NCBI GenBank assembly: GCA_048128005.1
Contig: JBEUKZ010000001.1
Location: 62,001 to 126,000 of the forward strand
Direction: 5' to 3'
DNA length: 64,000 bases
Source: Veleropilina oligotropha
Lineage: Eukaryota
The position numbers and the translations under genes were made by a program. A model generated the notes under the pieces. The model did no database searches, was not told the origin of the DNA, and was given only the letters and a program-made list of their open reading frames with translations. Each line of letters begins with the position of its first letter. Positions within the stretch are counted from its first letter, which is position 1. Shown here one piece after another: positions 22,854-27,905 of this stretch.

Positions 22854-23831
22854 ATGTCAGCGAAGAGACAGAAGCCCCTGACGGATAAAGAACTCGACGA
22901 AACCCTCCGCAAGTACTACTACGCAGATGGGGGGTTTCAGGGCGTCTCAGCTCTGCACTCAAGGCTTCCAAAAGGCGCAGCCTCAATAAAAAGAATCCGG
23001 ACGTGGCTCTCGACGCAGGAGGTTGGTCGGTACATGCAGACGAAACCCCCTAGAGAAGTCTTTGCCCGTTTCACAGAGGACAGGCCTGGTGTGATCCACC
23101 AGGATGATCTTCTCTACCTCCCACATGACAAGGTCGGCCGTAAAACGTACAAGTACGCGTTGACCTTGGTCGACGTGGCCTCTCGCTACAAGGCGGCCAG
23201 ACCACTAACATCGAAATCGGCCAGCGAGGTAGCTAAGGCGTTTGCTGACATCTACAAGACCAACCCGTCCCGCTTATCCTGGCCAAAAACGCTAATGGTG
23301 GATGACGGGCACGAATTCAAGGGGGAAGTATCCACTCTTCTAGGGAAGCACGGAGTTGATATACGACGCGCAGAGCCGGGTCATCACCGATCGCAGGCAT
23401 TTGTTGAGTCATTCAACCGCCGGCTGGCTGAACGACTTTTCAGGAAGCAAGCACACGAAGAGCTGAACAGCGGCCGGGACAACCGCCAGTGGGTGTCCGT
23501 TCTTCCAGCTGTAGTAGCAGATATGAATGCGACGCCAACACGACTAACTGGTCTTCCTCCAGCAAAGGCAGCCAACATGTCGCAGGTTCCGCTAGTGGCG
23601 ACCAAACCACCCCCCACACCCGAAACGGTGTTACCTATCGGCATGATGGTTTACCTCACCACAAACGAAGAAGACCCGAAAGATACCGGGCGCCGTCGTG
23701 CAACGGATCCATGGTGGACACATAAGCCCTACCCGATTCGCTGTCGCGTATCGGAACCCCACCAACCCGCGCTCTACTACACGCCATTCTCCAAGCATGG
23801 GTTTACACGGTCGCAGCTGAGACCTGCCTAG
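22854..23831 (+). CDS. Retroviral-like (rve, DDE) integrase (325 aa)
   Basis: Catalytic-triad motifs HQDDL, MVDDGHEF and VESFNRRL, plus YALTLVDVASRY. Confidence 0.9.
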   Translation: MSAKRQKPLTDKELDETLRKYYYADGGFQGVSALHSRLPKGAASIKRIRTWLSTQEVGRYMQTKPPREVFARFTEDRPGVIHQDDLLYLPHDKVGRKTYKYALTLVDVASRYKAARPLTSKSASEVAKAFADIYKTNPSRLSWPKTLMVDDGHEFKGEVSTLLGKHGVDIRRAEPGHHRSQAFVESFNRRLAERLFRKQAHEELNSGRDNRQWVSVLPAVVADMNATPTRLTGLPPAKAANMSQVPLVATKPPPTPETVLPIGMMVYLTTNEEDPKDTGRRRATDPWWTHKPYPIRCRVSEPHQPALYYTPFSKHGFTRSQLRPA

Positions 23832-26800
23832 TGTTTGTGTCGACGATTGCAGGACAGGCATGTCAACCGGACGTTCCACGTGTAATGACCCTGACTGTCA
23901 TCCAGGCGGTCGATGCTGAACGTCTGCCCGTGGCATTTCGTGTAGCCCTGGAGAAGGAGAGTACGATGGCAGACCACACACTTCTTTTCTGCGTCGTCGA
24001 TCATGTCGAGCACGTGATTGACGGTGAGCGTGTGGTGTGCTCCCGTGTAGTGGGGCCGTTGCTTTTGGTGATCCTCAACCACGTAACGCTTGAGCCTTGC
24101 GGCGATGAGCTCTCGCGAAGGTGTGGCCTGCTGATCGGTGGGAGTTATATCACCCGGAGCGTCGTCAGGCGGCAGAACCCATACAATCTGATCCATCAAC
24201 CGGGCCCGGCTCACTGCGGTGTATACGGCGTTGCTCACCCAACCACTCAGACCGTGGTCGACGATGTATAGGCGCCTGGGCGGTTGGATGGTCTTCCCTT
24301 GCACCCTATGCACCGTACCCCACCCCGCATATTTCCACTCAAGCGGTAGCCCTGTCTCGACTAGTCCAAGGGGGACTTTGATGATGGTCCCTCGATAGGC
24401 CGGCACGATTTCTCGACTACCTGGTATATGTATGGGCCGACCCTGCTTGCGGTACCGGTACGAGATGCTATCGTCTGGGTCGAATCGAATATTAGCAGGA
24501 AGCCGGGGGTGTATCCTTCTGTGCTGCCGGAGCAGCTGGGTCTGGACCTGCGCGCCTAGAGCGTTCGTGGAGCAGATCCAGATGTCATCGGGATTTGTGC
24601 GCTCTACAGCTTCTACGAACGGCGTTGCGGCCAACTTATCTCTGAAGACGTGGAGCTGTTGCTGGTCATTAGCGCACCACATCCGCGCCTTTACATCGTG
24701 CAAAGCCGATGTTGGCCCATTCTGACAGCGACAGCAGGACCACGGCTCGCCACACGCCTCGCACAGGCACCTATAGTCGGTGTCAAACCACCGCAGGTTC
24801 TGGTTGGGGGACGGGGCCGAGGCCCAGTCTGTTAACATGTGGTGAGGGCCTTCTTTATCGCCCCATGGCGGGATCTGCCCCATATCCCCGGCGCAGATGA
24901 TTTGACACGTCCGCCGGGCGAGATACTCAAGGACGGTCATCAGGGTCTTCGTGGGAATCTTGCAACATTCGTCGATGATGATAACTTCGGCTAGGTTGTC
25001 GAGTCGGTGTCCCAGGGCAGCAGGGTCCCAATCCTCGATCGGCTTGCCGACGGGTAGACATAGGTAGTGGTGGATCGTCTGGACCTGTGCATTCTCTAGA
25101 CCAAGTCTCGGGTCGTTGCGGTGTTCTTGGGCGATGTCGTTCTCAGGGGTGAGCACGACCAGCTTCCGGCCACGAAACGTCTTAACGGCCCACTCGGTTT
25201 TTCCACTGCCGCCTTGACCTGCGAGGTATAGCCGTCGCGAGGTGGCCGCGCCGACATCGGAAGGGAACGGAGGGGCATTCAACCCATGGGGCAAGTCGAG
25301 ACGACCAACATGCTCTATCGTCCAAGCAGCAGCCTCTGGGCGCCACTCATAACCCGGGGATTTGTGTCGCCACTGCCCATACCTAGGCTGGTCTGGGATC
25401 AGCATATGTTCGACCGAATCGGGCAGGCTCTTGACGTATATGGCATCGGTGCAGACACGAAGGACATCCTCTCGTGGGAATCTTCGTAGCATGCGGCGGA
25501 GGGCGATATTCGTGTATGCGAGTACGAAGGCTCGGATGTGGAACCACTGCGTCCGCCGTCTTCCGTCCTTGTACTGAATGAGGTGGACATTGCCGGCCTT
25601 CTCGAAGTTCAGGAGACGGTCAGTGCCGCCGAGAACATTGGCCAAGTAGGCGGCCTCGTTTTGATCGCGGACTAGGATGCTCGACTCATCACCGTGGCGA
25701 GCACACTTGCCAACGAAGCGCACGGCCAGGTCTCGTAATGGGAATTTGATAGCGGCCTTCGTGCCGACGCTGTATACCACTTCGCGCGCGGTGACCTCCA
25801 CCAGATCACCAGAGTCAATCAAGTCTGCAAGCTCGGGGGTAGTGATCCAGCCCTGCTTCTCCCGTAGGTGCTCGCCTACGCGACCTACGGTATAGGGGTG
25901 CGTCTCTGGGCTGAATTGCCACGCAGCGAGCTGCACAGCTCCTGTCAGGGCGAGGACGTCGCTCATGGGCACACCCTCGACGTTCGCACGACGCATCATA
26001 CTCGTCGGGAACCCATACTGGCGCACTAGATCTATGGATTCTCCGACCCCGCCACAGTGGGAGTCTTCGCAGCCAAGGTATGCTGCGCGCATGTCGAGAT
26101 GATGATGAACACTGGTGCCTGCGGCTTCGTCGTCAGAATTCCAGACCTTGGCCTCAACCTGAGCCGCTCTCCAGGTGTCCAGGTGGCTTTCTGGCGTTGG
26201 CTTGATCTCCTCGCGGGCCAACCACTTCTGGAACCGGTAAGACGTGGCGCCACCCATGGAGTGGGTAGCTCGGTGGTATTCCTCTTCAAGCTTCTTAAGC
26301 TCTTTGGGGATCTCGGAAGGATGCCAATGCGTCTCGTCCTCGAAAGCGTGGTCAATAGCAAAAATAAATACTTACTTACTTACTAATAGCCATACCCTCA
26401 GCCCTCGACCTCCACAGGGAACCATCACTACCCACGAGAGCCTGTCCACATACCCACACCCGGACCGTCGATGGGATGGCCCTGGTGGCAAATGCGATCA
26501 GAACCTCTCTGGTAATTTGGTCCATGGTCTTCTGGGCCGCAGTGGTCTTTGGGGCCGCAATGGTCTTCTGGGCCGCAGACGCAAGGGCCTGTTCTGCGAT
26601 GTCGTCGAGACTGTACACCTGTAAGATCTTGGGTGGATCGATCGGGATGCTTGCCCATGCGTGGTTGTTATGGCACGGTATCCGAATCTTGGGCCGGCCC
26701 TTGTATTTACCGCTGTCCCATAGAGTGTTGCCTAACGCGTCGACGGCAACAAGCTTGAATTTGAGAGCCGCTTCAATGGAGAACATATCATCGCGTGTGC

Positions 26801-27905
26801 AGCCCCGGTCCGCAAGCTTCCGGTCGAACTGCTCCAGAATCTGTCTGCGGCTCCTCGTTAACCCGTGTCCGGCTTTCGTCATGTTGTTCTGGAAGTGGTC
26901 CACCACACAGCGAACGAAGCAGTTTACAAACTCTCCGTCTTCTTGAGGGGCTAGCATTGGCCCCGGTTCTCCTTTTTGCTCCGGAAGCGGACGAAACTCG
27001 TACCGGATGTAGACGAGATACTCTCGCCCCTTCTCCCACGCCGCCTGGTCGATGCCGTGAAGAGCCCCGGCGCTGACCTGGTCTCCGCGAACCACCCCCT
27101 TCCCCTTAATGTGATGCTCAGAGACACCCACTTCCTCTGTCACTTGGGCAAGAGGCTCCTTGGCCGATTTCCCCACCACCGTGAACAGCTTGTACTGTGT
27201 GTCGGGGTCTAGAAGTTCCAACACCTCCGAGGCCATGCCCAGCGTCACCCGAAGATCCCTCTTTTCACACGATACCCAATACACCGCGCCTTCGTCTGTG
27301 ATGTCAGGCCCCCGTACAACAGCCTGGAAGTCGAATCTACGACCATCAACAGCCTCGGTAATCTCTTTACGGACGACGTCAGCGCCCGTCTTAATATAAG
27401 CCCCATCGGGGAACAGGACTGCGACACCGTCAACGAGAAGGGAATAATACTCATCCGAGGTCAAGTGATCTCTCGGAACATCCCGGAGGGGGGGCCCCCC
27501 CTTCCGAGCAATAGCCCCCGCAAGGGTCTCTTTCCGAGACCGAGTCAGACCGTGCAGGTGTGGCTTGATGATTAGATCCGTGATGTTGCGAAGTGCCGTC
27601 TGTCGTAGCGAGGGCTTTTTCTCAGCCCGGGTTTCGTATTTACGGACCTTGAGAGCCACACCGACCTCGTCCTTAAGCTGCTGCAATTCGCGAGCACGAC
27701 GGCCTCGTTTGTGGGGGTTCTCCACATCTCCACGGATGGAGGGGAATCTTCCCGTCTTCATTGCCCGCTCGAGTCTCCTCCGAAACTCGGCCGCACGGAC
27801 CCCGGCCAATGCCCTGATGAGGTCGTTTCTCTTGAGCTTCGACCGATCGGGAATCCCATAATCTCTCGCTAGATTGCGTAGCTCTCTGAGGGAGACACGT
27901 ACCAT
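23828..27905 (-). pseudogene. Replication polyprotein (OTU-like / PolB palm / SF1 helicase / HNH), 1348 aa once a 31-bp insertion at 26360-26390 is removed
   Basis: PolB motifs DMRAAY and VCTDAIY; SF1 motifs GQGGSGKT, IIDEC, GDMGQIPP, TVHRVQGKT and YTAVSRA; HNH-like CVVC...DRLD...GH...N...CLSCN. Confidence 0.85.
26360..26384 (+). mobile_element. 25-bp extremely 5'-truncated retroposon tail
   Basis: AAAAATAAA followed by (TACT)4, flanked by the direct repeat AATAGC at 26354-26359 and 26385-26390. Confidence 0.7.

What the first reader, a model, noticed from the sequence alone, without database searches (positions are those of the whole stretch)
23828..27905. PolB-SF1 helicase-HNH fusion that retains the polymerase catalytic aspartates
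Seen in both divergent versions: motif A-like DMRAAY / DMKACYP, degenerate motif B (RFVGK / RIIGK), motif C-like CTDAI / ATDSI, no recognisable exonuclease motifs, then a full RecD/Pif1-like SF1 motif set and a terminal CxxC-DRxD-GH-N-CxxCN finger. Established: fusions of an SF1 helicase to a PolB-derived domain, generally considered inactivated, are known from some Polintons, PLVs, Tlr1 and transpovirons. Inference: retention of both Asp across such divergence suggests an active exonuclease-less polymerase or terminal-priming enzyme, giving a single-chain replicase.
Basis: partly seen in the sequence, partly recalled or inferred. Interest (0 to 1): 0.8.

Follow-up and report, generated by a model that had tools for sequence, protein, structure and literature searches.

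The report
Polinton-type virus polymerase-helicase replicase gene
This is the (here interrupted) replication gene of an integrated polinton-like virus, a known fusion of a stripped-down protein-primed DNA polymerase with a helicase, whose likely polymerase activity was already predicted in print.

Summary
Window 23828-27905 (-) holds two adjoining ORFs (509 + 809 aa). A second version, about 30% identical, lies at 37497-41166 (+). Each gene sits in a ~15.5-kb GC-rich element with terminal inverted repeats, an rve integrase, an A32-type packaging ATPase and a capsid gene, so these are integrated polinton/PLV-type viruses.

An AlphaFold2 model of the 809-aa ORF (pLDDT 92) matches phi29 DNA polymerase residues 188-499 (Z 14.8). 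This is followed by a RecD2/Pif1-type helicase (Z about 22) and a beta-beta-alpha zinc finger. The upstream ORF has a little-finger-like (PRD1 terminal-protein-type) domain and an OTU-like domain.

Among all 138 database hits, the motif A Asp is kept in 85 of the 86 that cover it. The second motif C Asp is kept in 86 of 90. The first motif C Asp is present in only 5 of 90, and no KxY motif was seen.

This is the published "Tlr1-like helicase" architecture (TP-vOTU-palm-S1H-HNH; Virus Evol 2016, PNAS 2024). The 2024 paper already predicts polymerase activity. Both window copies are interrupted. Verdict: a new member of a known kind, of modest interest.

The parts
13080..28540 (.). Integrated element 1 (~15.5 kb, GC ~55% in ~35% GC host DNA), bounded by terminal inverted repeats
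   Evidence: GC profile. TIR arms 13080-13304 and 28316-28540 are 225 nt long and 99% complementary.
26376..27905 (-). v1 ORF A (509 aa): N-terminal part of the replicase (SAP/Rho_N-like motif, helical region, TP-like domain, OTU-like domain, linker)
   Evidence: Rho_N E 1.4e-5, aa 5-33. AF2 model pLDDT 82. Colinear with the N-terminal halves of intact 1264-1394-aa homologues.
26976..27296 (-). Terminal-protein-like (little-finger/PAD-like) domain, ORF A aa 204-310. Candidate priming Tyr296 is at 27018-27020.
   Evidence: VIA second look: aa 204-310 against human Pol eta residues 315-432, Z 5.0-5.5, ~94 aligned, rmsd 3.7. PNAS 2024 gives little-finger matches as the signature of PRD1-like TP/D1 domains. 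Tyr296 is Tyr in 42 of 45 rows with a residue.
26649..26954 (-). OTU-like cysteine protease domain, ORF A aa 318-419 (Cys329 at 26919-26921, His415 at 26661-26663)
   Evidence: Matches to Otu2 (Z 5.8), TYMV PRO/DUB (Z 5.8) and OTUD1/2/3 and DUBA (Z 5.0-5.2) over aa 318-419. Cys is kept in 48 of 49 rows and His in 49 of 49.
26258..26375 (-). Interruption of the v1 reading frame between ORF A and ORF B. A short AT-rich stretch with stop codons is absent from intact homologues, and the frame changes.
   Evidence: Sequence and three-frame translation. The intact homologue P0003 runs through this point without a break.
23828..26257 (-). v1 ORF B (809 aa): palm + SF1 helicase + HNH-type finger
   Evidence: AF2 model pLDDT 92.2, pTM 0.88.
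25325..26254 (-). Exonuclease-less protein-primed PolB polymerisation domain, ORF B aa 2-311. Motif A Asp55 is at 26093-26095 and motif C Asp271 at 25445-25447.
   Evidence: phi29 DNAP 1xhx_A: Z 14.8, rmsd 4.4, 263 aligned, model 2..311 against chain 188..499. hhalign against 8 phage pPolBs: Prob 55%, E 1.2e-4, with C269-T270-D271 placed on D456-T457-D458. Conservation.
24158..25258 (-). SF1B (RecD2/Pif1/Dda-like) helicase domain, ORF B aa 334-700
   Evidence: Pfam AAA_30/AAA_19. Profile against PDB: RecD2 E 1e-14. Foldseek Pif1/RecD E ~1e-13. VIA: RecD2 3gpl Z 22.7 and Pif1 7bil Z 22.0.
23831..23986 (-). C-terminal HNH-type (beta-beta-alpha, double CxxC) nuclease finger, ORF B aa 758-809
   Evidence: Motif columns are conserved in the rows that have the tail. 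The model shows beta-beta-alpha at 779-805. Profile hits are weak: Endonuclease_7 E 0.06 in v2, PacI E 0.62, Pfam HNH E 0.013 in homologue P0071.
22842..23831 (+). rve-type integrase of element 1, convergent with the replicase
   Evidence: Pfam rve E 9.4e-8.
36033..51593 (.). Integrated element 2 (~15.6 kb), opposite orientation, with its own different TIRs
   Evidence: TIR arms 36033-36117 and 51509-51593, 85 nt, 96%. Colinear with element 1.
37497..41166 (+). v2 replicase in two overlapping frames (37497-39281 and 39085-41166), with a frame change inside the palm between motif A and the RIIGK motif, near 39.13-39.15 kb
   Evidence: Motif A Asp at 38946-38948 and motif C Asp at 39589-39591. 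AAA_30 E 2.6e-10.
41156..42154 (-). rve-type integrase of element 2
   Evidence: Pfam rve E 3.4e-8. 43.5% identical to the element 1 integrase.

Best explanation
The gene is the replicase of an integrated polinton/polinton-like virus. It belongs to the published 'Tlr1-like helicase' class.

Domain order from N to C terminus (shown by fold and profile matches):
- a variable N-terminal region, here with a SAP/Rho_N-like motif;
- a little-finger-like domain of the PRD1 terminal-protein type;
- an OTU-like cysteine protease;
- an SF1B RecD/Pif1-type helicase;
- an HNH-type zinc finger.

Inferred mechanism in intact copies:
1. The palm adds the first nucleotide to a conserved Tyr of the terminal-protein-like domain (Tyr296 of ORF A) at the inverted terminal repeats of the linear genome.
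2. The palm then elongates while the fused helicase unwinds the duplex. The helicase would stand in for strand-displacement and processivity features.
3. The OTU-like protease cuts the terminal-protein part off.
4. The neighbouring rve integrase inserts the genome into the host.

I put membership of this protein class at about 0.9 and real polymerase activity of intact family members at about 0.55.

The two copies in this window are each interrupted, v1 between the OTU-like domain and the palm and v2 inside the palm. As assembled they are decaying endogenous copies, unless the breaks are assembly errors.
For: Palm fold. The AF2 model of ORF B (pLDDT 92.2, pTM 0.88) matches phi29 DNA polymerase 1xhx_A. 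Z is 14.8, rmsd 4.4, 263 residues aligned, model 2..311 against chain 188..499. It is the only non-helicase entry among the 50 rows shown from 48,161 chains. A profile-profile comparison of the palm columns (57 rows) with 8 phage pPolBs gives Prob 55% and E 1.2e-4. It places C269-T270-D271 on phi29 D456-T457-D458. The greedy extension places D55 on D249 and Y60 on Y254, at low confidence.

Conservation:
- D55 is Asp in 56 of 56 long homologues and D271 in 55 of 55.
- Over all 138 hits, D55 is kept in 85 of the 86 that cover it and D271 in 86 of 90.
- G183 is invariant in 57 of 57 rows. R175 is R or K in 55 of 57. R242 is kept in 55 of 56 and Y248 in 56 of 57.
- Mean pairwise identity is 30.5% for the palm (55 rows) and 32.8% for the helicase (50 rows).

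Other domains:
- Helicase.
- TP-like domain: Pol eta little finger, Z 5.0-5.5 over aa 204-310. This is the signature PNAS 2024 reports for PRD1-like TP domains. Tyr296 is Tyr in 42 of 45 rows.
- OTU-like domain: several OTU structures at Z 5.0-5.8 over aa 318-419, with Cys in 48 of 49 rows and His in 49 of 49.

Context. The elements have TIRs, an rve integrase, an A32 ATPase and a capsid gene. No other polymerase ORF is present in either element.

Literature. The same architecture and the same activity prediction are in PMC5499653 (section 8 read) and PMC11161782 (passages). Animal 'group 2 Maverick-Polintons' with SF1 helicase-polymerase fusions are described in bioRxiv 10.64898/2026.06.19.733378 (passages).
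Against: Sequence-level detection is weak:
- No profile names the palm. Pfam DNA_pol_B_2 was hit by 0 of 37 homologues at E <= 1 and by none of the window ORFs.
- The family profile found no polymerase among PDB sequences.
- hhalign against phi29 alone gave Prob 2.8%.

Catalytic equipment is incomplete:
- The first Asp of DTD is Asp in only 5 of 90 hits. It is Cys in v1 and Ala in v2.
- No canonical Kx3NSxYG was found. Its mapping is ambiguous between R175...G183-K184 and helix 199-211, which starts with an invariant acidic D198/E201 pair.
- No KxY or thumb was seen.

Other limits:
- The TP-like and OTU-like matches have only Z 5-6, a range the tool itself calls common.
- Homologues were collected by similarity to the palm, which inflates palm conservation.
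- I had no model coordinates, so the geometry of D55 and D271 was not checked.
- Both window copies are interrupted, and element 1 has at least two more genes split over two frames.
- No expression data could be obtained.
Confidence: 0.8

Rival explanations
1. The palm is a catalytically dead relic, as in the 2016 reading. It would serve as a scaffold or DNA-binding module for the helicase. Replication of the element would then rely on a host or helper-virus polymerase. The conserved Asp would be kept for fold stability, metal binding or another chemistry.
For: The first motif C Asp is missing: it is Asp in 5 of 90 hits. No canonical motif B and no KxY/thumb are present. There is no exonuclease. 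No profile recognises the domain as a polymerase. Krupovic et al. 2016 argued this for the family. Inactivated PolB domains are known elsewhere (same section).
Against: Two carboxylates and the steric-gate Tyr/Phe are near-invariant down to ~25% identity. The palm is as conserved as the helicase. A TP-like domain with a conserved Tyr and an apparently active OTU-like protease are retained upstream, which makes little sense without priming. No other polymerase is encoded. PNAS 2024 notes that active PolBs of mavirus, pipolins and others lack the same first Asp.
Confidence: 0.3
2. Initiation-only enzyme. The palm catalyses only the covalent addition of the first nucleotide(s) to the terminal-protein-like domain, or short primer synthesis. 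Elongation is then handed to a cellular or helper polymerase.
For: The missing thumb/KxY and the degenerate motif B argue against processive synthesis. The TP-like domain and its conserved Tyr are retained.
Against: There is no direct evidence. TPR1/TPR2-containing regions are covered by the phi29 match over residues 188-499 (domain limits of phi29 are recalled, not tested). The fused helicase could supply processivity. The published prediction is full DNAP activity.
Confidence: 0.1
3. The v1 arrangement is a deliberate two-gene split, with TP-protease and polymerase-helicase as separate proteins as in adenoviruses, and not a broken gene.
For: ORF B begins with an ATG just at the start of the palm match, and ORF A ends after the linker. 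PNAS 2024 reports independent TP/pPolB splits in some polintons.
Against: Homologues 72-78% identical over the palm region searched are single frames of 1264-1377 aa through this point. The frame of ORF B stays open and homologous for ~30 codons upstream of its ATG. The gap is a short AT-rich stretch unlike the 55% GC element. Element 1 carries other frame breaks.
Confidence: 0.05

Closest known systems
Tlr1-like helicases of polinton-like viruses, Tlr1 elements and transpovirons (Krupovic, Yutin, Koonin 2016, PMC5499653; PNAS 2024, PMC11161782)
   Same: Large protein (1,000-1,400 aa) in which an exonuclease-less pPolB palm precedes a C-terminal SF1 helicase. The first Asp of motif C is replaced and motif 4 is missing. 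An OTU-like protease with Cys and His and a TP-position domain lie upstream. PLV members carry an HNH nuclease at the C terminus. The Tlr1 element also pairs the protein with an rve integrase.
   Different: Direct sequence kinship to the named members was not tested here. The top BFVD match, H6WBE3, carries no name in the tool. The middle domain here looks PRD1-TP/little-finger-like. The 2024 paper reports that form for TvV-S1, not for Tlr1 or transpoviron Mama. The relatives found here with organism names come from sea slugs, a sea anemone and arbuscular mycorrhizal fungi, not protists.
Group 2 Maverick-Polintons of animal genomes (bioRxiv 10.64898/2026.06.19.733378, passages only)
   Same: 15-20-kb integrated elements with MCP, A32 ATPase and rve integrase. 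pPolB is often replaced by an SF1 or SF3 helicase fused to a polymerase. They are found in molluscs, corals and other animals.
   Different: I did not place the capsid or ATPase in their phylogeny. Assignment to that group is an inference from gene content and from named relatives (Elysia).
[quoted passage not shown]
   Same: The fold of the polymerisation domain (Z 14.8 to phi29 residues 188-499). Also the motif A Asp and Tyr, the second motif C Asp, and the LGxW segment after motif C.
   Different: No 3'-5' exonuclease domain, no first motif C Asp, no canonical motif B, no KxY/thumb, and fusion to a helicase.
Mavirus-type pPolB (TP-vOTU-PALM) and other polymerase-helicase fusions of PLVs and virophages (PolA-S3H, AEP-S3H), as described in PNAS 2024
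   Same: An exonuclease-poor palm behind TP and vOTU domains, and one polypeptide that combines synthesis and unwinding.
   Different: Mavirus has a separate S3H helicase. The other fusions use unrelated polymerases and SF3 helicases. The OmPLV fusion of Oxyrrhis has the opposite order (helicase then pPolB) and keeps the exonuclease (PMC12721341, passages).

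Membership tests
Tlr1-like helicase (TP-vOTU-PALM-S1H replicase of PLVs/Tlr1/transpovirons) | SF1 helicase domain in the C-terminal part of a protein of at least 1,000 aa | tested here: met
   AAA_30/AAA_19. RecD2 E 1e-14 with the family profile. RecD2 Z 22.7 and Pif1 Z 22.0. Intact homologues are 1264-1394 aa.
Tlr1-like helicase (TP-vOTU-PALM-S1H replicase of PLVs/Tlr1/transpovirons) | Protein-primed PolB polymerisation (palm) domain directly upstream of the helicase | tested here: met
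   phi29 DNAP 1xhx_A: Z 14.8, 263 aligned, model 2..311 against chain 188..499. hhalign against 8 pPolBs: Prob 55%, E 1.2e-4, over motif 2b to motif C.
Tlr1-like helicase (TP-vOTU-PALM-S1H replicase of PLVs/Tlr1/transpovirons) | No 3'-5' exonuclease domain | tested here: met
   The phi29 match starts at chain residue 188, just behind the exonuclease half. Only ~90 residues of ORF A (aa 420-509) plus ~30 codons separate the OTU-like domain from the palm, which is too few for a full domain. A small remnant is not excluded. No dedicated Exo I-III motif search was run.
Tlr1-like helicase (TP-vOTU-PALM-S1H replicase of PLVs/Tlr1/transpovirons) | Motif C with the first Asp replaced and the second kept; motif 4 (KxY) missing | tested here: met
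   Position 269 reads C19 A16 N5 S5 K4 D3 in 56 rows. D271 is kept in 55 of 55. Over all hits, position 269 is Asp in 5 of 90 and D271 is kept in 86 of 90. No KxY appears in the family consensus after motif C.
Tlr1-like helicase (TP-vOTU-PALM-S1H replicase of PLVs/Tlr1/transpovirons) | vOTU-like cysteine protease with conserved Cys and His next to the palm | tested here: met
   ORF A aa 318-419 against Otu2 (Z 5.8), TYMV PRO/DUB (Z 5.8) and OTUD1/2/3 and DUBA (Z 5.0-5.2). Cys329 is kept in 48 of 49 rows and His415 in 49 of 49. The Z values are modest.
Tlr1-like helicase (TP-vOTU-PALM-S1H replicase of PLVs/Tlr1/transpovirons) | Terminal-protein-position domain upstream of the vOTU | tested here: inconclusive
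   aa 204-310 against the Pol eta little finger, Z 5.0-5.5. This fits the LF/PAD signature of PRD1-like TPs in PNAS 2024. Tyr296 is conserved in 42 of 45 rows. Z is in the range that can reflect a common alpha/beta arrangement. No TP structure was available for direct comparison.
Tlr1-like helicase (TP-vOTU-PALM-S1H replicase of PLVs/Tlr1/transpovirons) | C-terminal homing-endonuclease domain (HNH in PLVs, GIY-YIG in Tlr1) | tested here: inconclusive
   The CxxC / DRxD / GH / N / CxxCN columns are conserved in the 21-28 of 57 rows that have the tail, and the model shows beta-beta-alpha there. Profile matches are weak: Endonuclease_7 E 0.06, PacI E 0.62, HNH E 0.013 in one homologue.
Tlr1-like helicase (TP-vOTU-PALM-S1H replicase of PLVs/Tlr1/transpovirons) | Sequence or phylogenetic kinship with the named Tlr1, PLV or transpoviron proteins | not tested
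   No named member was available in the collections I could search. The best BFVD structure match, H6WBE3 (E 1.5e-18, 738 columns), has no name in the tool.
[quoted passage not shown] | Motif A Asp and steric-gate Tyr (DxxSLYP) | tested here: met
   D55 is kept in 56 of 56 rows. Y60 is Tyr in 44 and Phe in 12 of 56. The greedy hhalign puts them on phi29 D249 and Y254 (low confidence).
[quoted passage not shown] | Motif C with both Asp (DTD) | tested here: not met
   Only the second Asp is kept. PNAS 2024 cites active PolBs that lack the same first Asp, so this does not settle activity.
[quoted passage not shown] | Motif B Kx3NSxYG | tested here: inconclusive
   R175-x7-G183-K184 has the spacing and the invariant Gly of K-x7-G-K, but lacks the Asn and Tyr. 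hhalign instead puts phi29 motif B opposite the non-conserved helix 199-211.
[quoted passage not shown] | KxY motif / thumb and 3'-5' exonuclease | tested here: not met
   No KxY follows motif C. The helicase starts ~60 residues after motif C. The exonuclease half is absent (see above).
[quoted passage not shown] | DNA synthesis and TP-primed initiation | not testable with these tools
   Needs biochemistry.
Polinton / polinton-like virus (integrated) | Morphogenetic module (DJR capsid protein, A32-type packaging ATPase) | tested here: met
   Pox_A32 E 3.1e-10 for element 2. Capsid_N is weak, E 0.004-0.005. A relative 72% identical is named 'Major capsid protein' for Elysia in UniRef. The penton protein and the maturation protease were not identified.
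Polinton / polinton-like virus (integrated) | rve integrase and terminal inverted repeats | tested here: met
   rve E 9.4e-8 and 3.4e-8. TIRs of 225 nt at 99% and 85 nt at 96%. Target-site duplications were not resolved.

The most novel reading that the evidence does not exclude
This clade of fusion replicases has named relatives in marine invertebrates and arbuscular mycorrhizal fungi. It may keep the ancestral PRD1-type terminal-protein domain with a conserved priming Tyr. If so, one polypeptide holds primer, processing protease, exonuclease-less polymerase, helicase and nuclease, which is a whole replisome in one chain. The helicase would stand in for the lost thumb and exonuclease. In the two elements here the replicase, the integrase and the inverted terminal repeats differ together, while the 9-kb capsid block is 84% identical. 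The ends and the enzymes that act on them would therefore travel as one exchangeable module.
Probability: 0.4. Interest if true: 0.5.

Novelty: new member of a known kind. Interest (0 to 1): 0.3.

Why it matters
If intact members of this family do polymerise DNA, they would be the most reduced protein-primed family B polymerases known. They lack the exonuclease, the thumb and one catalytic Asp, with a fused helicase in compensation. They would also be a compact one-protein replication system. That question was raised in print in 2016 and answered by prediction in 2024, so this locus adds support and material, not a new idea.

- A count showing that two carboxylates are near-invariant in 86-90 relatives.
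- A concrete candidate priming residue.
- Evidence that relatives of this replicase class occur widely in eukaryote genome and metagenome data, including named records from sea slugs, a sea anemone and arbuscular mycorrhizal fungi.
- A neat natural example of exchange of the replication/integration module, together with the element ends, against a shared capsid module.

Tried and rejected
Sequence-level searches for a polymerase in the palm:
- Pfam names no polymerase in the window ORFs or in 37 homologues at E <= 1.
- phmmer of ORF B against PDB sequences found nothing relevant.
- The family profile against PDB sequences found only helicases.
- hhalign against phi29 alone gave Prob 2.8%.

Structure searches filled by the helicase. 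Foldseek on PDB and BFVD, and the second look at Foldseek's list, showed helicases only. Only the exhaustive VIA search showed phi29 polymerase.

Intron hypothesis for the v1 break. A script listed GT...AG pairs that would join the frames. Many fit by arithmetic, and none has support. Comparison with the intact homologue shows a short AT-rich stretch that the homologue lacks, without canonical splice ends. I dropped the intron reading.

Look-ups that gave nothing:
- Whole genome of the window: none is held.
- Earlier notes of the scan: none.
- Cluster members and names of the closest homologues: the database was switched off and the query was not made.
- Sequencing runs: none was listed, and no RNA holder was listed.
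- IMG/VR scan: the alignment was too divergent for patterns. The single protein found no relative.
- Host identity from flanking ORFs: 7 ORFs, no Pfam hit.
- Target-site duplications: the ends were inspected, with no clear duplication.

Supplements not opened. The motif alignments and SI figures of the 2016 and 2024 papers were not opened. I therefore could not check which residues those authors call motif B, or whether close relatives of this protein are already in their sets.

Full report
**What is there.**
- The window holds two GC-rich islands (~55% GC) of about 15.5 kb in ~35% GC DNA, at roughly 13.0-28.5 kb and 36.0-51.6 kb.
- The finding's coordinates are exactly two adjoining minus-strand ORFs: 26376-27905 (509 aa, 'ORF A') and 23828-26257 (809 aa, 'ORF B').
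- The second version lies in the other island on the plus strand, as two overlapping ORFs: 37497-39281 (594 aa) and 39085-41166 (693 aa).
- The two versions are homologous from end to end at only 30-34% identity.

**Both copies are interrupted.**
- In v1 the frame of ORF B stays open and homologous for about 30 codons upstream of its ATG.
- Between that point and the end of ORF A lies a short AT-rich stretch with stop codons. An intact homologue lacks it (P0003, 1358 aa, 73% identical over the palm region searched).
- I tested an intron reading. The stretch has no canonical splice ends, so I dropped that reading.
- In v2 the frame changes inside the palm, between the motif A-like and RIIGK motifs, near 39.13-39.15 kb.
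- Whether these are real lesions or assembly errors could not be checked. No genome and no sequencing run were available.

**Context.**
- Each island ends in its own inverted repeats: 225 nt at 99% for element 1 and 85 nt at 96% for element 2.
- Each carries an rve integrase next to the replicase, an A32-type packaging ATPase and a capsid gene.
- The capsid protein has more than 3,372 relatives among the 8,000 candidates scored. One of them is named 'Major capsid protein' for the sea slug Elysia marginata.
- Neither element has another polymerase-sized ORF.
- These are integrated polinton/polinton-like viruses.
- Replicase relatives with organism names come from Elysia crispata, a sea anemone, and Rhizophagus and Diversispora fungi.
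- The host of this window is unknown, but an animal is quite possible. I therefore left the broken frames as they are.

**The polymerase-like part.**
- I aligned ORF B with 55 long homologues of 24-75% identity and folded it. The model has pLDDT 92.2 and pTM 0.88.
- Foldseek lists were filled by helicases.
- The exhaustive VIA search of 48,161 chains placed phi29 DNA polymerase (1xhx_A) at rank 16. Z is 14.8, rmsd 4.4 and 263 residues are aligned, with model residues 2-311 against chain residues 188-499. It is the only non-helicase among the 50 rows shown.
- The match begins just behind the exonuclease half of phi29 and ends just before its thumb.
- No sequence profile names the domain. Pfam DNA_pol_B_2 was hit by 0 of 37 homologues. 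The family profile found no polymerase among PDB sequences.
- A profile-profile comparison of the palm columns with eight phage protein-primed polymerases gave Prob 55% and E 1.2e-4 over 63 columns. It puts C269-T270-D271 on phi29 D456-T457-D458, and the G-x-W that follows on the phi29 LGYW (phi29 numbering checked).
- The greedy extension puts D55 on D249 and Y60 on Y254, at low confidence.

**Conservation.**
- In the 57-row alignment, D55 is Asp in 56 of 56 rows with a residue and D271 in 55 of 55.
- Y60 is Tyr in 44 and Phe in 12 of 56 rows. G183 is invariant in 57 of 57, and R175 is Arg or Lys in 55 of 57.
- The position of the first motif C Asp reads C19 A16 N5 S5 K4 D3.
- I had left out fragments under 700 aa from that alignment. 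I therefore also aligned all 138 hits to a palm HMM. D55 is kept in 85 of the 86 that cover it, D271 in 86 of 90, and the first motif C position is Asp in 5 of 90.
- Mean pairwise identity among homologues is 30.5% for the palm (55 rows) and 32.8% for the helicase (50 rows). The OTU-like domain has 27.3% and the TP-like domain 19.9%.
- One caveat is that the homologues were collected with the palm as query.
- Points against a canonical active site are that one of three carboxylates is missing, no KxY/thumb is present, and motif B is not canonical.
- The mapping of motif B is ambiguous. R175...G183-K184 has the right spacing and an invariant Gly. hhalign instead puts phi29 motif B opposite helix 199-211, which starts with an invariant acidic pair, D198/E201. 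I cannot explain that pair.

**The rest of the protein.**
- The helicase (ORF B aa 334-700) is SF1B. The family profile gives RecD2 at E 1e-14. VIA gives RecD2 Z 22.7 and Pif1 Z 22.0.
- The C-terminal finger has conserved CxxC/DRxD/GH/N/CxxCN columns in the 21-28 of 57 rows that have it, and a beta-beta-alpha model. Profile hits to HNH families are only weak.
- ORF A was folded with 49 other sequences (pLDDT 82).
- Its aa 204-310 match the little-finger domain of human Pol eta (Z 5.0-5.5, ~94 aligned).
- Its aa 318-419 match several OTU domains (Otu2 and TYMV PRO/DUB at Z 5.8; OTUD1/2/3 and DUBA at Z 5.0-5.2).
- These Z values are modest. However, Cys329 (48 of 49 rows) and His415 (49 of 49) are conserved.
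- A Tyr in the loop before the last strand of the little-finger-like domain (Tyr296) is Tyr in 42 of 45 rows, with Gly or Pro before it in many rows.

**Comparison with the literature.**
- Krupovic, Yutin and Koonin 2016 (PMC5499653; abstract, passages and section 8 read) described this fusion in PLVs, Tlr1 and transpovirons. Their description has motifs 1, 2a, 2b and 3 present, motif 4 and the exonuclease missing, an HNH at the C terminus in PLVs, and an unassigned N-terminal ~450 aa. They called the polymerase inactivated.
- The PNAS 2024 paper (PMC11161782; passages only) modelled such proteins and defined the TP-vOTU-PALM-S1H organisation.
  - It noted that active PolBs of mavirus, pipolins and others lack the same first Asp.
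  - It wrote that the authors predict DNA polymerase activity.
  - It also reports that PRD1-like terminal-protein domains give little-finger domains of Y-family polymerases as their best structural matches. The linking Tyr or Ser sits in a loop before the last strand. That is what I see in ORF A.
- A 2026 preprint (10.64898/2026.06.19.733378; passages) states that group 2 Maverick-Polintons of animals often carry SF1 or SF3 helicases fused to a polymerase in place of pPolB.
- I did not open the supplements of these papers. They may hold the motif alignments and perhaps close relatives of this protein.

**Mechanism.**
- Shown: the domain order, the folds and the conservation.
- Inferred: in intact copies the palm primes on the conserved Tyr at the inverted terminal repeats and extends. 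The helicase unwinds, the OTU-like protease releases the terminal-protein part, and the integrase inserts the genome.
- I put membership of the class at about 0.9 and true polymerase activity at about 0.55.
- The main rival, an inert palm, gets about 0.3. An initiation-only enzyme gets about 0.1.

**Seen in passing.**
- The two elements share a 9.1-kb block (13934-22847 against 51117-42155) at 84% nucleotide identity, and a 0.3-kb block at 87%.
- Protein identities in the shared blocks are 63-99%. The capsid protein is at 85% and one 142-aa ORF at 99%.
- The integrase (43.5%), the replicase (30-34%) and the terminal repeats are not alignable at the DNA level.
- The replication/integration genes and the ends they act on therefore differ together against a shared capsid module.
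- Element 1 also has its ATPase and a 437-aa-type gene spread over two frames.

**Verdict.** These particular copies are interrupted. This is a new member of a known kind, of modest interest.

Noticed in passing
13934-22847 vs 51117-42155; 27914-28231 vs 37487-37170; 22848-27905 vs 37490-42154: The two elements are mosaics. The capsid/morphogenesis block is 84% identical at the DNA level over 9,088 nt (capsid protein 85%, one 142-aa ORF 99%). The integrase (43.5%), the replicase (30-34%) and the terminal inverted repeats cannot be aligned as DNA. The replication/integration module and the element ends seem to be exchanged as one unit.
   Followed up: partly
20017-20594 and 17435-18698: Element 1 has further damage. 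Its A32-type ATPase matches the intact element 2 protein in two different frames. The homologue of the 437-aa protein of element 2 does the same.
   Followed up: partly
25655-25666 (ORF B D198-E201): An acidic pair, D198 and E201 (each 55 of 57 rows), opens helix 199-211. The greedy profile alignment places this helix opposite the Lys-rich motif B helix of phi29. It is unexplained, and it makes the motif B assignment ambiguous.
   Followed up: partly
27807-27893 (ORF A aa 5-33) vs 37497-37700: v1 starts with a Rho_N/SAP-like motif (E 1.4e-5) that v2 lacks. Homologue P0005 has a v2-like N terminus on an otherwise v1-like protein. The extreme N terminus therefore seems to be shuffled among lineages.
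   Followed up: no
44942-46243 (capsid gene) and its relatives: The capsid protein has more than 3,372 relatives at E <= 0.001 among 8,000 scored candidates, many at 67-77% identity. Two are filed under metagenome-assembled genomes of Candidatus Thiodiazotropha (clam symbionts). These look like host DNA binned with the symbiont.
   Followed up: no
9985-10614 and 11136-11427: Two long (AT)n microsatellites (about 318 and 147 copies) lie just upstream of element 1. They explain the 0-14% GC bins.
   Followed up: yes
35022-35412: A pair of 67-nt inverted repeats (79%) 257 nt apart, and a 23-nt pair inside them, lie in the 43-46% GC stretch left of element 2. This may be a small foldback or MITE-like insertion.
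   Followed up: no
37110-37448 and 27956-28231: A small ORF (112 aa in element 2) just upstream of the replicase start is 83% identical between the elements, although the replicases differ. Pfam gives only a weak DUF1289 hit, E 0.0034.
   Followed up: no
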